64,000 nt of DNA from Escherichia coli (lineage in GTDB: Bacteria; Pseudomonadota; Gammaproteobacteria; Enterobacterales; Enterobacteriaceae). Of the stretch, positions 12,001-18,000 are shown piece by piece. Position numbers: made by a program. Location: the NCBI RefSeq assembly GCF_030013205.1, contig NZ_CP122648.1; one strand, written 5' to 3'. How positions within the stretch are numbered: position 1 is the first letter of the stretch; every line of letters begins with the position of its first letter.

Positions 12001-15000
12001 ACATATTATTAATAATGTAGGATTATATAAAAAGATATTATTAGAGTTACAATATGTTTATTATATTTACGTGTAAATATGCACATCTACAGATATAGAG
12101 GATATTAGACGGGGAAACCCACATCTATTCTTTAAAGATGCTATACGTAATGATACGCATAGAAAAAACACAAAAATGAATTCCTAATCTTTGTCTTTTA
12201 TTTAAATGACTGGAAACATCCAATTATTGAAAGTTGGTTTCCTAAAAAATTCATTTACGTTCCATTTGAATTTAAAGAACAAGCGACAATTAATCGATAA
12301 AAAAGACAATAAAAATTCCAGGTTGCTTATTTTGGAAATGAACTTACCAGAAGACTTATCTTCACTAAACATAAAAACTGGTGATAACTCCAATTAATAT
12401 AACATATATTTTTCGATAAAAGCACCGATGACTTTTTCATGAAGTTCCACAAAGCGCGAGGAACAGATGGTTTTGCGAGCCAGACGTTTGATTCGGGTTC
12501 TCAGGGTCAGATTGTTGCGCTCAATGCGTTGAGTGAAAATTGTACCAGTCAGATGCTTCTCCTTCGGTAACTCTCTAGTGTAACTACCCCATTCGTCAGT
12601 GATCAACACACCGATGGTAAAAGGGGCAAGCAGCGCCAGCAATTCACGACAGGTTCCATCAGTCCAGGGGCCAAAAGTGTAGGCCAGAACGCCATCAGTT
12701 TTCGTGTTGTACGCGTACCAGAGCCGGTGCTGTCGCCTTTACTGCCGACAAAACTCGATTGCTCATCAGGTTCGCAGATGAGTGCCACATCAGCATGAGC
12801 GACCGGGGATGACGTTATTCTTCGTGGCGAGAGTTTTTTAAAGTCCGGGTGACAGTATTAATGCCGATTTTCAGCATAGGGGCAGTATCGCGAATTCCGA
12901 CACCATTGAAAGCCATTTCAGTGATTTGGTCTTTAACTCCCGGTTTACGGGCCTCGTAACAGTAAGTGAGCTGAAACACCCGGTGACAATCACGGCAGCG
13001 GAATCGCTCATGTCCTTTTGGGGTCTTCTCGTGACGGTAAACCTGAACGGACTGGCAACGGGAGCAATGAAGGTCAACTATAACCATGAAAGAACCTTAA
13101 ATTCGAGTATTTTAGCCCTAAATCAACTAATTGGAAGCATTGCCGTTGAAAGATTATTGTGAGATTGGAATGTATTTTACTAAAAAAGTTGCATGGTCTG
13201 TAATCATATCGACGGCGCTATTGAATTGTATAAAAATGATTGATCATATTTTTTGTCGTGTTATTTAATAATCTTATGTGAAATATCAAGCTAATTTTTA
13301 TTTAAAAACGGTTGTGAAAATGAAAGTATTATATGTTACCAATAGTGCGAGAAGAGAAAGACCATATTTAGATCCAGCGGTTAGGTATAGATGTTATAAT
13401 TTTGCAGAGGTCCTGAGAGCTGACCGAAATCTTGTAAATGTCATTCATTTGGGTGACTTGAAAATGGACTATATATCCTATTTCGATGTTATCGTTTTTC
13501 ATAAACCTCCATTTACAAAAAACTTGCAGGCTGCAATAGCTTTTGGCGAGAAGTTAAAAAAAATAATTATTGCCGATTATGATGATCTCATTTTCGATGA
13601 AAAAAATGCATTGTTTTCGTCTCTATATTTGAATGGCAGAGCAACTGAAAAAGAAGCTATTAGTATATTCAATAGAAATCACAAGGCTCTTAATCTTTTT
13701 AATAAAATTACCGTATCTACATATCCACTTCGTGATGAAGTACTCCACTCGAATCCAGATGCAAACGTAAAGGTTATACACAATGGCCTTTCTCAGATTT
13801 GGGTTGATAGAGCAAGAGAAGACATACTTAGCAACCCAGTACCAGGGCTTATTGGGTATTTCTCCGGCACATCAAGTCATAATCATGATTGGCAAATGGT
13901 CGAGGATCTATTAGCCGAGTTTCTTAATAAAGAAAAAAAAGCAAAACTAAGAGTAGTTGGTCCATTGCACATTAATAAAGATAAATTTGACCAATCTAAA
14001 CTTGAAATTATCAAAGCTGTTGATTATGAAAAATTGCCCAATCTTATTAATTCATGTTGGGTAAATATTGCTCCGTTAGAAAATAACCTTTTTAATTCGT
14101 GCAAGAGTGGTCTTAAGTTCTTTGAAGCTGGAATTTTAAATGTACCATCAATTGTTTCACCAATCCCTGATATGTGTAGATTTTCAGAGTCTGGCCTGTT
14201 GATGCCAAAAAATCCAGATGAATGGACTGATTCTTTGCATTTAATGATGAATGAAAGTACGCGGCAGTCATTATCAAAAAAAGCGTACCAGTTCTCAATT
14301 GATAACTGCATGGCTAGAAATCAATTAAATACTCTCAAACAATTTTATTCTTAAGAGAAAATTAAAATGAAAATCCTTTTTTATCTAGAAATTCACCCAA
14401 TTAGAAATAGCTATTCATCTTTCACCTGGGTCGGAAAGCAGATTATAAATATGTTGAGAAAGCAGTATCTTTCTCAACACCATGCGAAAATTGATTATGA
14501 TGATATTCGAATCGTTGTTTCCAGACATTATCAAGAACTTATTGATAACAATCAGGATTTAAAAACAATTTTTCTTGGACTAACAAAAGAAGAAAATGAC
14601 AGACTTTCTTTTTATATGAGAGACTGGAATTCTGATGTTCAGGCGATAAACAATTGGACATCTTTGATGCAGGGAACTGGTGAGGTTTCTGAATTTTATA
14701 AAAGCATCCTCGATAGGATTTATCAAAATACATTTAGTTTTGATGTCGTTGTTAACTGGAGCACTAATGGTGCAATTCGTGATTTCTGTCGGGAACGAGG
14801 TCTAAGTAATGTATCTATGGAATTGGGATGTGTCAGGGAACCAATTATAAATACCGTATGTTTCGATGCGTGTGGTGTTAATGGCAATTCAGTGATAAAG
14901 AATTTAGATTTTAACGCAATTGATGAAGATGAACTTATAGATATTAAAACAATCATGCCTATCAAGACAAAACATGATATGTCCCTTGATTCATTGTTCA

Positions 15001-18000
15001 GACCAATAAATTGTTCAGCTTCAGATGTTCTTTATTCGTCTTTCGGTAAAAATGTATTAATACCATTGCAATTAAAAGACGATTCTAACCGAATTATATT
15101 TTCCCGCTTTCACGGAATGTATGATTTCTTGAGAGAGATCATTCCTCAACTTTTAGATGCTGGTTATACGTGTATTGTAAAACCACATCCTATGGCTAAT
15201 GCTTCTGCAGCTAGAGAAGTCAACAAGAAAGATCATTTTCAATGCCAAGAATATGTGGATAAATTAGGATTGGATAGTGTCATTTGGCTGGACGATTTAA
15301 AAGGTAATGAGAATTATCTTTCTTTATTAAATTTAGTTAACTATGTTGTGTCTATAAACAGTAGTATGGCATTCGAAGCAATGATGCTGGGTATTCCTAC
15401 TGTTGTTATGGGGAATGCTCCGTTTGATATAGGTTCTTATTCATTTGAAGATTTGCTTGAGGATAAATATCCTGAGGAATTGGCTCTTAAAAATAAAATA
15501 ATTACAAATGTAATTTATCGAAACTACTTAGTACCGCAATCACTAGCTTTTGAATATGAACATTTTATATTCCATATTCGTAGGGCTATTAGATTAAATA
15601 AAATATTGATGAATAAAGGAGCCTCTGCTTTTACAAAGGAAATTATAAAGCATGATAACATATCATATATCTATGAGAGTTTGAACACAGAACCTCTTGT
15701 GAAAAAAAGGCATTTGGAGCATTACAATAAACATGTTGAACAAATTAAAAAGAAATCGACATCCACGACGACTCTGGCTGCATCAATATCAAATGTTACC
15801 CCTGAGTTAATAATGTCAACAGTAACACCCTCCCCCTCTGCTGGTGAATTAGTTATAAAACATCCGGTAATAAAAAGCTCGTTTAAAAAGAAAATGATAA
15901 AACTCAAAAATAATCCAAAAAAGTTTTTTAAGGACTCCAAAAAAGGATATATTAGAGTTTTATCCAACATCATTCCATAATTGACAGTTAATGAAAGTTT
16001 GTTATAAGTCTTAACGGAATAACCATGAATAATATAATCTTTGAAGATGATGATCTCTTAATAATGATCTCGAATTACTGTAAGGAAAATAAACATGCTG
16101 TCATTTGTTTTTCTCCACGTATTGCTAATGTTCCGGAACAAGTCATTGATTCAAATTTGGCGTTTTCAAAGGTTTTTTTTGATAAGTACCCCTTTACTGG
16201 TATATATATAATACCAAAATGGAATCATTGGTATGAAACAGAAAATTTTGATAAAGCAATCTCAGCTATTAACAATTATACAAACTTGCAGGATATCTGG
16301 ACATATGGTGTCTCCATGGGAGCATATGGTGCTATGCGATATGCTGAGCAGCTTAATGCATCAGGTACAATTAGTATTTGCCCTCAGGCAAGCATTAATA
16401 AACATTTAATTCCATTTGAGAAACGATGGGGCACTGAATTAGCAAAATTAAATATTTCAGAAAATTGGATGAAACTACATAAACTTGCTAAAAATACTTA
16501 TGTCTTTTATGATTCCAAGTACATACCTGATAAAAGACATGTCGACTTATTAAAAGATAACTACTCGTTTATTACAGAGGTAAAAGTTGATTTTGCAGAA
16601 CATGCTGTTGCAGGTGTTCTACTTGAATGCGGTTTACTCAAGGAAACTGTATTGAATTTAATATATGGAAATTTCTATATAGAGAGTTTTTTGTCCACAT
16701 TAAAATCTCAGAGAACTAGTTCACCTGGTATTTATTGTGGTTTTTCTAACTATTTACGGCACTTACGGAAATATCAAAAAGCTCAGGTGTTCTCAAAAAA
16801 ATCTTTTTGGATGCGAGCTCATAATAAAGAATTACAAAAAAATGTAGCACTAACAAAACAGACTATAAACGAATATATTTTAACTTTAGTTGCATGCAAA
16901 GCATATGACGATTTAAATATGGTTTTTGATAATGTCAAAAACTATTTTTCAATTGATATATATAAAGAAATAAAAAATCAGCATTCAGTAACTATCAAAA
17001 ACGTTGAATCGGGAAAATTCGTTGAGTCAAATGATACTTTTATAGGTGGTGCACATGTTCATCGCTGGCTTAAATGTATCAAAGACGGCATTTTTCCACC
17101 TGAAATTTATCAACCATTCGATGCATATGGCGCTGGTGGTATTCCTGTCTGGTCTAAAAAATTGTATGAGTCAGCTGGTTCGTTAAACTACAAATCTATA
17201 AATCTTATTGTCGGTGATTTCCGTTATGGGAATGCGGTGCTTACCGATAATAAGGCAACAAAATTAATGCTTGATGGTTACGCTGCAGTAACCACTTCAC
17301 TGATCAATTCAGAAAATGATATTTTAATGATGCAGCGTTGTTTGTCAGCGATTAAAAGATGGAATGAAAAATTTCATGGTGCTTTAAAAATAGTTTTCTG
17401 GGATCTATTTTTCAAACAGTATAATCATTTGGGAGAGTTAAATAAAAGTGCATGTGAATTATATGCTGATGTAATTAGTAAGCATTGTGAGTTTAATGTT
17501 GTTGACTTTCAACCATTGCATAAATATAAATTCAGGGGTCTGCGTAGACTTTTTATAGATAATTCATACCATCCTTCTTATATCGGTTGTCTTTTTTTAC
17601 ATAACTTACTTATTGAGAATAAGGACGTTTTAGAGTCTTATTGCTCAGCAGTATCGTATGTTGATAATATTTTTTTAAATTATGCAAAACAAATAACTGA
17701 ACACTCTATTAAACCTGTCCTTATACTTGGTGATAGTATTTGGATTTCGTCATTGCTCCGTTACCTCTGTGAACAAAGTTATTCAAATCTTGCCAGTGCT
17801 GGTTTATTTATCTGCAATATAGATGATAAAGATATAGGTCGGAATATTCAGGATATACGTAACCTTGATAAGCTTGGTACACTAAGAATAGTTTTGATTT
17901 CGCCAAATCCAGAGCTTGCTTATGTCAAATTAGCCAACAAAACGAATCTTGACAAAGCTATCTGGCAAAAAGTGAAATGTATAAATTGGGAAGCAAAGGC

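What the first reader, a model, noticed from the sequence alone, without database searches (positions are those of the whole stretch)
14367..15980. Region 2 protein with a KpsS/KpsC-like domain
The segment NYVVSINSSMAFEAMMLGIPTVVMGNAPFD parallels VVTINSTAGISALIHNKPLKVMGNALYD in the KpsS of this same locus. KpsC and KpsS are the retaining beta-Kdo transferases that build the conserved Kdo linker. A third family member in the serotype-specific region suggests Kdo is also part of the repeat unit, or that the protein is a divergent linker enzyme.
Basis: partly seen in the sequence, partly recalled or inferred. Interest (0 to 1): 0.65.

Follow-up and report, generated by a model that had tools for sequence, protein, structure and literature searches.

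The report
K12 capsule beta-Kdo transferase gene

The parts
14367..15980 (+). Target gene (K12_12; RefSeq WP_016238545.1), 537 aa, GT99-like retaining beta-Kdo transferase
14367..14891 (+). N-terminal alpha/beta (acceptor-side) domain, residues 1-175, with family-invariant E8, R13, W97, W131, N134, E152, G154, R157, P159, D167, G170, G173
   Evidence: Alignment A1. PF21912 hit at 93-175. In WbbB the acceptor binds only the N-terminal domain (PMC9587256).
14820..14837 (+). MELGCVR motif: Glu152 (equivalent of the WbbB general base Glu158) and Arg157 (WbbB Arg163)
   Evidence: Profile-to-PDB alignment. Invariant in 36 homologues. Also aligned to KpsS FEEGYLR.
15069..15083 (+). QxxxD motif Q235-L-K-D-D239: Gln235 (Kdo carboxylate binding) and Asp239 (predicted catalytic nucleophile, equivalent of WbbB Asp232)
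   Evidence: The PDB variants D232N and D232C show N or C exactly at the column aligned to D239. Invariant in the family. Motif definition in PMC12887879.
15186..15191 (+). HP motif His274-Pro275 (WbbB His265-Pro266; protonates the CMP leaving group)
15339..15428 (+). It contains the invariant N331-S332 and F336-E337 of the CMP-binding C-terminal Rossmann domain.
15852..15977 (+). C-terminal basic tail (residues 496-537; 13 K/R against 1 D/E) with the motif KLKNNPKKFFKDS and predicted helices 505-534. It follows a disordered linker (464-502). Predicted membrane- or complex-docking element.
   Evidence: The motif is conserved at the C-terminus of 15 homologues.
13320..14354 (+). GT-B glycosyltransferase (K12_13, 344 aa; an alternative GTG start at 13278), candidate alpha-L-rhamnosyltransferase
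   Evidence: GT4_e934. Paralogue of the other GT.
16025..19156 (+). 1043-aa three-module protein (K12_11): SacC-like alpha/beta-hydrolase module, unassigned middle module, and AlgJ/PatB/DHHW-like module. Candidate O-acetyltransferase(s) of the K12 polymer.
19283..20320 (+). GT-B glycosyltransferase (K12_10, 345 aa), second candidate rhamnosyltransferase
12381..13144 (-). IS1-family element, left boundary of region 2
20570..21333 (-). IS1-family element, right boundary of region 2, a direct repeat of the first (period 8189 bp)
10478..10516 (+). JUMPstart RNA element ahead of kpsM (region 3/2 operon leader)
   Evidence: Rfam RF01707, 58.5 bits.
10545..11983 (+). kpsM and kpsT (ABC exporter, region 3)
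22019..25271 (-). kpsS (22019-23209) and kpsC (23244-25271), the canonical GT107 linker beta-Kdo transferases
   Evidence: (the NCBIfam KpsS model gives 398 bits, under its 600-bit curated cut-off).
25268..29921 (-). kpsU/kdsB (CMP-Kdo synthetase), kpsD, kpsE, kpsF (rest of region 1)
   Evidence: Coordinates converted with record minus 794598.

Best explanation
The gene encodes the serotype-specific retaining beta-Kdo glycosyltransferase of the E. coli K12 (= former K82) group 2 capsule. It has one GT99-type module (about residues 1-430) followed by a flexible linker and a strongly basic C-terminal helical tail.

Inferred mechanism, by homology with WbbB. CMP-beta-Kdo is made by KpsF and KpsU/KdsB of region 1. 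It binds the C-terminal Rossmann domain through the HP motif (His274-Pro275), N331-S332 and E337. Asp239 of the QxxxD motif attacks C2, giving a covalent alpha-Kdo-enzyme adduct. The adduct swings into a second subsite. Glu152 then deprotonates a hydroxyl of the terminal alpha-L-rhamnose of the growing chain, and a beta-Kdo-Rha linkage forms with net retention. From my recollection of the published K12 structure, this is beta-Kdo-(2->3)-Rha.

The two flanking GT4-type enzymes would add the two rhamnoses from dTDP-L-Rha, which is supplied by rfbBDAC of the O139 O-antigen cluster. The 1043-aa neighbour would O-acetylate the polymer. The chain is built on the lyso-PG-oligo-Kdo primer made by KpsS and KpsC and exported by KpsMT and KpsED.

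Shown here: homology, fold, conservation of catalytic residues, locus identity and context. Inferred: donor, acceptor, linkage, and the role of the tail.
For: - **Sequence.** PF05159 and the GT99 N-terminal domain are detected. The family profile hits WbbB at E 2e-16 and aligns E152/R157/Q235/D239/H274-P275 to WbbB E158/R163/Q228/D232/H265-P266 (residue roles from PMC9587256). All of these are invariant in 36 homologues.
- **Locus identity.** Gene lengths and Pfam coordinates equal the K12 reference cluster, and K12_12 is listed as dbCAN GT99(98-407). K82 was merged into K12. The sequence is 100% identical in O139:H1 strains, and O139:K82:H1 is the classical serotype.
- **Polymer chemistry.** K12 contains Rha and beta-Kdo.
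- **Context.** The Rahnella orthologue (58% identity) sits in a kps locus with the same GT / Kdo-transferase / 1039-aa trio next to rmlB, rmlA and rmlC. Another homologue sits with kdsA, an ALGX-domain protein, kpsC and kpsS. Some homologues are fused to RgpF rhamnan-synthesis domains. ETEC4067, which has the same kps region, carries rfbBDAC.
- **No competing candidate.** No other Kdo-transferase-like fold was found in region 2. The best fold matches of the 1043-aa protein are acetyltransferases and esterases.
Against: - There is no biochemical or genetic test of this protein, here or in the literature I could read.
- The exact K12 linkages (Kdo to O-3 of Rha; acetyl on Kdo O-7/8) come from my memory of Schmidt & Jann 1983 and could not be read.
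- The first 90 residues do not align to WbbB at sequence level, so conservation of acceptor-binding residues is unproven.
- The middle module (residues 335-715) of the 1043-aa neighbour has no assigned fold, so a cryptic second transferase is not strictly excluded.
- JBC 2026 states that region 2 of beta-Kdo capsules lacks obvious KpsC/WbbB homologues. That conflicts with this reading, but it is contradicted by the dbCAN and RefSeq annotations.
Confidence: 0.85

Rival explanations
1. It is a chain-terminating beta-Kdo 'capping' enzyme like the WbbB GT99 module. It would add one terminal Kdo to a rhamnan to stop elongation or mark the chain for export, rather than a Kdo in every repeat.
Against: K12 is reported to contain Kdo as a repeat-unit constituent. 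No other Kdo-transferase-like domain is seen in region 2. Group 2 capsules are exported without a terminal-cap recognition system. The protein lacks the coiled-coil ruler and the polymerase modules of WbbB.
Confidence: 0.05
2. It is a divergent linker enzyme: an extra KpsS/KpsC-type activity that modifies or extends the conserved oligo-Kdo anchor, or makes the transition from linker to polymer.
For: Sequence similarity to KpsS is as strong as to WbbB (61 against 63 bits).
Against: Full-length kpsS and kpsC are present. Against the NCBIfam KpsS equivalog the target scores 21 bits, with a cut-off of 600. The gene is confined to one K type (28 of 5426 complete genomes), whereas linker enzymes are universal in group 2 loci. 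Co-occurrence with rml genes and RgpF fusions links the family to rhamnose acceptors.
Confidence: 0.04
3. It transfers a different ulosonic acid (for example pseudaminic or sialic acid), as the KpsS-like GT118 enzyme KpsS1 of Acinetobacter does.
For: Relatives of this superfamily include a Pse transferase (PMC12887879 discussion).
Against: The locus has no nonulosonic-acid biosynthesis genes, while kpsF and kpsU supply CMP-Kdo. The WbbB-type general-base Glu, which GT118 lacks, is present and invariant. The K12 composition is Rha plus Kdo.
Confidence: 0.02

Closest known systems
WbbB N-terminal module (CAZy GT99), Raoultella terrigena O-antigen beta-Kdo transferase (PDB 5FA0/5FA1, 8CSB-8CSF)
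   Different: Only about 16-20% identity. The target is a stand-alone 537-aa protein in a capsule locus, not the first module of a three-GT O-antigen polymerase-terminator. It is expected to act once per repeat unit rather than once per chain. It has a basic C-terminal tail instead of a coiled-coil ruler. The first 90 residues are not alignable by sequence.
KpsS and KpsC (CAZy GT107), linker beta-Kdo transferases of group 2/3 capsules
   Same: Same superfamily (PF05159). The Glu, QxxxD, HP and NS motifs all align. The profile score to the in-window KpsS is 61 bits, with hhalign probability 98.7%. Same donor (CMP-Kdo) and presumably the same double-displacement chemistry.
KrkA N-terminal module (GT140), E. 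coli K13/K20/K23 repeat-unit beta-Kdo transferase (PDB 9YFX-9YFZ)
   Different: A different GT family. KrkA has no detectable sequence similarity to WbbB or KpsC and places its general base elsewhere (Glu102). The K12 enzyme keeps the WbbB-type Glu. KrkA is fused to a ribosyltransferase, whereas this protein is a single GT module.
K12_12 of the kTYPr K12 reference cluster / RefSeq WP_016238545.1
   Same: Same length. The Pfam coordinates are nearly the same (221-357 there, 222-357 here). The neighbouring genes are the same. The identical protein accession is found in pig O139 and human UPEC genomes.
   Different: Nothing detectable. I could not align the reference-strain sequence itself, only its published lengths and domain coordinates.

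Membership tests
Retaining beta-Kdo transferase superfamily (Pfam PF05159 Capsule_synth; GT99/GT107 lineage) | Significant profile match to PF05159 | tested here: met
   E 1.3e-9, residues 222-357. The same hit is published for K12_12.
Retaining beta-Kdo transferase superfamily (Pfam PF05159 Capsule_synth; GT99/GT107 lineage) | QxxxD motif with the nucleophilic Asp and the Kdo-carboxylate Gln; HP motif | tested here: met
   Q235...D239 and H274-P275 align to WbbB Q228/D232 and H265-P266 and are invariant in 36 homologues.
Retaining beta-Kdo transferase superfamily (Pfam PF05159 Capsule_synth; GT99/GT107 lineage) | WbbB/KpsC-type general-base Glu in the N-terminal domain | tested here: met
   E152 in MELGCVR aligns to WbbB E158 and to KpsS FEEGYLR, and is invariant.
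CAZy GT99 (WbbB-like) | Sequence assignment to GT99 models | tested here: met
   Pfam PF21912, the GT99 N-terminal domain, E 1.8e-7 (partial, model positions 95-178). Family profile vs WbbB E 2e-16. Published dbCAN call GT99(98-407), GT99_e0. Caveat: the profile scores KpsS equally well.
CAZy GT99 (WbbB-like) | Modified GT-B fold with a reduced N-terminal Rossmann domain and a helical sub-domain, closest to WbbB | tested here: met
   [not shown]
CAZy GT99 (WbbB-like) | Transfers Kdo from CMP-beta-Kdo with retention, via a covalent Asp-Kdo adduct | not testable with these tools
   Needs an enzyme assay and intact-protein mass spectrometry.
KpsS orthologue (GT107, linker initiation) | Passes the NCBIfam equivalog NF050054 (cut-off 600 bits) | tested here: not met
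   The target scores 21.2 bits. The in-window KpsS scores 398 bits.
KpsC orthologue (GT107, dual module) | Two tandem GT107 modules, about 675 aa | tested here: not met
   Single module. Profile bits to KpsC-N are 20.6 and to KpsC-C 17.9.
E. coli K12 (K82) kps region 2 | Gene set K12_10 to K12_13 with the published lengths and domains, between kpsT and kpsS | tested here: met
   345/1043/537/344 aa, PF05159 at 221-357, alpha/beta-hydrolase signal at 63-126 of the 1043-aa protein. The reference sequences themselves were not available for alignment.
E. coli K12 (K82) kps region 2 | Host supplies dTDP-L-rhamnose from the O-antigen cluster (K12 lacks rml genes) | tested here: met
   No rml genes in the window. 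ETEC4067, with an identical kps region, has rfbBDAC next to the O139 wzy/wzx. The hypothesis comes from PMC13171606.
GT140 (KrkA-like) | General base on a different secondary-structure element (YE motif); no sequence similarity to WbbB/KpsC | tested here: not met
   The target has clear sequence similarity to WbbB and KpsS and carries the WbbB-type Glu.

The most novel reading that the evidence does not exclude
The evidence does not exclude that this is the first GT99 enzyme working as an elongating subunit of a multi-protein capsule polymerase. Its conserved basic C-terminal tail (K-x-x-P-x-x-F-F-x-D-S) would act as a dedicated docking element for the membrane or the Kps export complex. It also does not exclude that the IS1-bracketed region 2 is a naturally amplifiable cassette (1, 2 or up to 9 copies seen) that tunes capsule gene dosage.
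Probability: 0.2. Interest if true: 0.45.

Novelty: already known. Interest (0 to 1): 0.2.

Why it matters
It matters little as a discovery. RefSeq already names the protein a beta-Kdo transferase, and the 2026 kTYPr catalogue lists K12_12 as GT99 within the K12 cluster.

It has modest practical value. K12 is one of the K types most associated with invasive ExPEC disease in that study, and it is also the capsule of porcine oedema-disease O139 strains. The enzyme is an uncharacterised GT99 member with a predicted Rha acceptor, which makes it a tractable comparison to WbbB (terminator versus elongator).

It is also a counter-example to the statement that region 2 of beta-Kdo capsules lacks recognisable KpsC/WbbB homologues.

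Tried and rejected
1. Single-sequence phmmer of the N-terminal 176 aa against PDB, to align the WbbB acceptor residues (Arg12, Trp20). It returned only chance Gremlin hits, so correspondence of the acceptor site remains inference.
2. Attempts to read the K12 repeat-unit linkages in held papers (PMC2187861, EK3D PMC4702918, PMC10072801, PMC12220298, kTYPr Supplementary Table 1). None prints them. Ovchinnikova 2016 (PMC4896679) is not held.
3. Full-text search for the tail motif strings (FFRDS and similar). It returned only unrelated acronyms.
4. Promoter and terminator scans of region 2. Counts were no higher than in shuffled sequence.
5. The two GT4 genes and the 1043-aa protein against PDB sequences. 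No informative hits. NCBIfam and Pfam gave nothing for the middle module of the 1043-aa protein.
6. 'Divergent linker enzyme' and 'other ulosonic acid transferase' were considered and rejected (see rivals).
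Full report
**Observation.** The window holds an ORF at 14367-15980 on the + strand, 537 aa, with an ATG start 12 nt after the stop of the upstream gene. BLASTP aligns it to the quoted stretch of the KpsS encoded at 22019-23209 (-). That alignment covers 180 residues at 27% identity (E 7e-8) and also contains an LQxxDS box and an HP box. Pfam reports PF05159 Capsule_synth (222-357, E 1.3e-9) and PF21912, the GT99 N-terminal domain (93-175, E 1.8e-7). A profile of 36 homologues aligns to KpsS over 232 columns (hhalign 98.7%, E 3.6e-16).

**Where we are.** The first 9.5 kb are the gsp type II secretion genes. They are followed by a JUMPstart element (10478-10516, Rfam 58.5 bits), kpsM and kpsT. 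Next comes an IS1-family element, four low-GC genes (30-34% GC), and a second IS1. After that lie kpsS, kpsC, kdsB/kpsU, kpsD, kpsE and kpsF on the other strand, then island cargo, an integrase and tRNA-Phe. This is a classical group 2 kps locus in the pheV island.

The 6.5 kb around the target is 100% identical to swine E. coli O139:H1 and ETEC/EDEC genomes. The target gene itself is present in only 28 of 5426 complete E. coli genomes, pig isolates and human UPEC alike, always at 99.9% identity or more. [quoted passage not shown]

**Which capsule.** The supplement of the 2026 kTYPr paper (PMC13171606) lists the K12 reference cluster as follows: K12_10 (345 aa, GT-B), K12_11 (1043 aa, alpha/beta-hydrolase signal at 63-126), K12_12 (537 aa, PF05159 at 221-357) and K12_13 (344 aa, Glyco_trans_1_4). 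These are the same lengths, order and domain coordinates as in the window. Its dbCAN table gives K12_12 = GT99(98-407), GT99_e0. The paper also states that K82 was deleted in favour of K12, and O139:K82:H1 is the classical serotype of these pig strains.

K12 polysaccharide contains rhamnose and beta-pyranosidic Kdo. From my own recollection of Schmidt & Jann 1983, which I could not read here, the repeat is ->3)-alpha-L-Rha-(1->2)-alpha-L-Rha-(1->5)-beta-Kdo-(2->, with O-acetyl on Kdo O-7/8.

**What the protein is.** A database search found 49 homologues. Most carry PF05159 plus PF21912, and some are fused to RgpF rhamnan-synthesis domains. In the 36-sequence alignment the invariant residues include E8, R13, E152, G154, R157, Q235, D238, D239, N241, K272, H274, P275, N331, S332, E337.

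The family profile hits WbbB (GT99; 5FA0, 8CS*) at E 2e-16 and KpsC at only 6.5e-4. In that alignment the following correspondences hold:

| This protein | WbbB | Role in WbbB |
|---|---|---|
| E152 | Glu158 | general base |
| R157 | Arg163 | |
| Q235 | Gln228 | Kdo carboxylate binding |
| D239 | Asp232 | nucleophile |
| H274-P275 | His265-Pro266 | HP motif |

The D232N and D232C crystal variants show N or C at exactly the column aligned to D239. The residue roles are taken from PMC9587256 and PMC12887879.

A local hmmsearch with the same profile scores the in-window KpsS at 61 bits, about equal to WbbB at 63 bits. It scores the two KpsC modules at only 18-21 bits. The protein fails the NCBIfam KpsS equivalog (21 bits against a cut-off of 600).

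The protein therefore belongs to the WbbB/KpsS/KpsC lineage of retaining beta-Kdo transferases. It is best filed under GT99. It is not an orthologue of either linker enzyme.

**Context in relatives.** The Rahnella orthologue (58% identity) lies in a kpsFEDCS-kpsMT locus. It is followed by a 344-aa GT, the 540-aa Kdo-transferase homologue and a 1039-aa protein, then rmlB, rmlA and rmlC. A more distant homologue sits between a GT-B gene and an ALGX/TPR protein, with kdsA, kpsC and kpsS nearby. A Massilia homologue is fused to RgpF. The window itself has no rml genes. ETEC4067, whose kps region is identical, has rfbB, rfbD, rfbA and rfbC at the head of its O139 O-antigen cluster. This extends to O139 the kTYPr observation that K12 occurs only with rhamnose-containing O types.

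**The neighbours.** The two GT-B genes are paralogues (E 3e-11), which suits two alpha-L-rhamnosyl linkages.

**Mechanism proposed.** See Best explanation. The chemistry is inferred from the conserved catalytic set. The acceptor is inferred to be rhamnose from three things: the polymer composition, the rml and RgpF associations, and the fact that WbbB itself transfers Kdo to O-3 of alpha-Rha.

The 42-residue tail has 13 K/R against 1 D/E. It carries a K-x-x-P-x-x-F-F-x-D-S motif that is conserved at the C-terminus of 15 homologues, and in each locus only on this protein. I suggest membrane or complex docking. From memory, the N-termini of polysialyltransferases carry a similar motif, but I did not test this.

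**Rivals.** The following are each disfavoured; see the rival entries.
- A WbbB-like chain-capping role.
- A divergent linker enzyme.
- A transferase for another ulosonic acid.

**Comparison with the literature and novelty.** The protein is already named in RefSeq and classified as GT99 in the kTYPr supplement. The interpretation that region 2 GT99/GT107-like domains make the Kdo linkages of Kdo-containing K antigens is stated in that paper. [quoted passage not shown] It also says that region 2 of beta-Kdo capsules has no obvious KpsC/WbbB homologues. K12 is a counter-example at the annotation level, and nobody has characterised this enzyme. I rate the finding as already known and of low interest (0.2).

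**Limits.** All functional statements rest on homology. The linkage details are from memory. The acceptor-site residues could not be aligned to WbbB.

Noticed in passing
window 12381-13144 and 20570-21333 (IS1 copies), unit 12381-20569; L001, L002, L003: Region 2 is bracketed by two direct IS1-family copies with a period of 8189 bp. The same IS1 + region 2 unit is tandemly duplicated in EC556, EC571 and EC581. The gene occurs at 9 places in TUM17543, where the part inspected (three copies, L003) has IS5 inserted in the last glycosyltransferase. Human UPEC132 has the single-copy form. This looks like IS1-mediated amplification of the serotype-specific capsule genes.
   Followed up: partly
[not shown]
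   Followed up: partly
window 15852-15977 (+), residues 496-537 of the target: A strongly basic C-terminal tail carries the motif KLKNNPKKFFKDS. It is conserved (RKLRRDPAKFFVDS-like) at the C-terminus of 15 homologues and is found only on the GT99-like protein of each locus. From memory, similar motifs sit at the N-termini of polysialyltransferases. A literature string search found nothing.
   Followed up: partly
window 10478-10516 (+): A JUMPstart RNA element (RF01707, 58.5 bits) lies just upstream of kpsM. Region 3/2 transcription would have to read through the oppositely oriented IS1 to reach the target gene.
   Followed up: no
L010 (NZ_CP122685.1 1943926-1947381): ETEC4067, a strain with an identical kps region, carries rfbB, rfbD, rfbA and rfbC at the start of its O139 O-antigen cluster. 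O139 can therefore be added to the rhamnose-containing O types that co-occur with K12; kTYPr listed O1, O4, O13/O135, O18, O51 and O132.
   Followed up: yes
window 13278 vs 13320 (+): The start of the first glycosyltransferase differs between RefSeq records: 1077 nt from the GTG at 13278 in UPEC132, and 1035 nt from the ATG at 13320 in EC556 and the kTYPr reference (344 aa).
   Followed up: no
PMC12887879 vs window 14367-15980: The JBC 2026 KrkA paper states that the variable regions of beta-Kdo capsule operons contain no obvious KpsC or WbbB homologues. The K12 gene is an obvious one: Pfam, dbCAN GT99 and the RefSeq name all agree. The kTYPr identity table also links K12_12 to K14_8 at 27% identity.
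   Followed up: partly
window about 30700-42324: The rest of the pheV island is ordinary cargo: CbtA/YeeU toxin-antitoxin, ISEc20, an Ail/Lom family outer-membrane protein, a frameshifted sulfatase-like gene, a tyrosine integrase (40789-42051) and tRNA-Phe (42249-42324).
   Followed up: no
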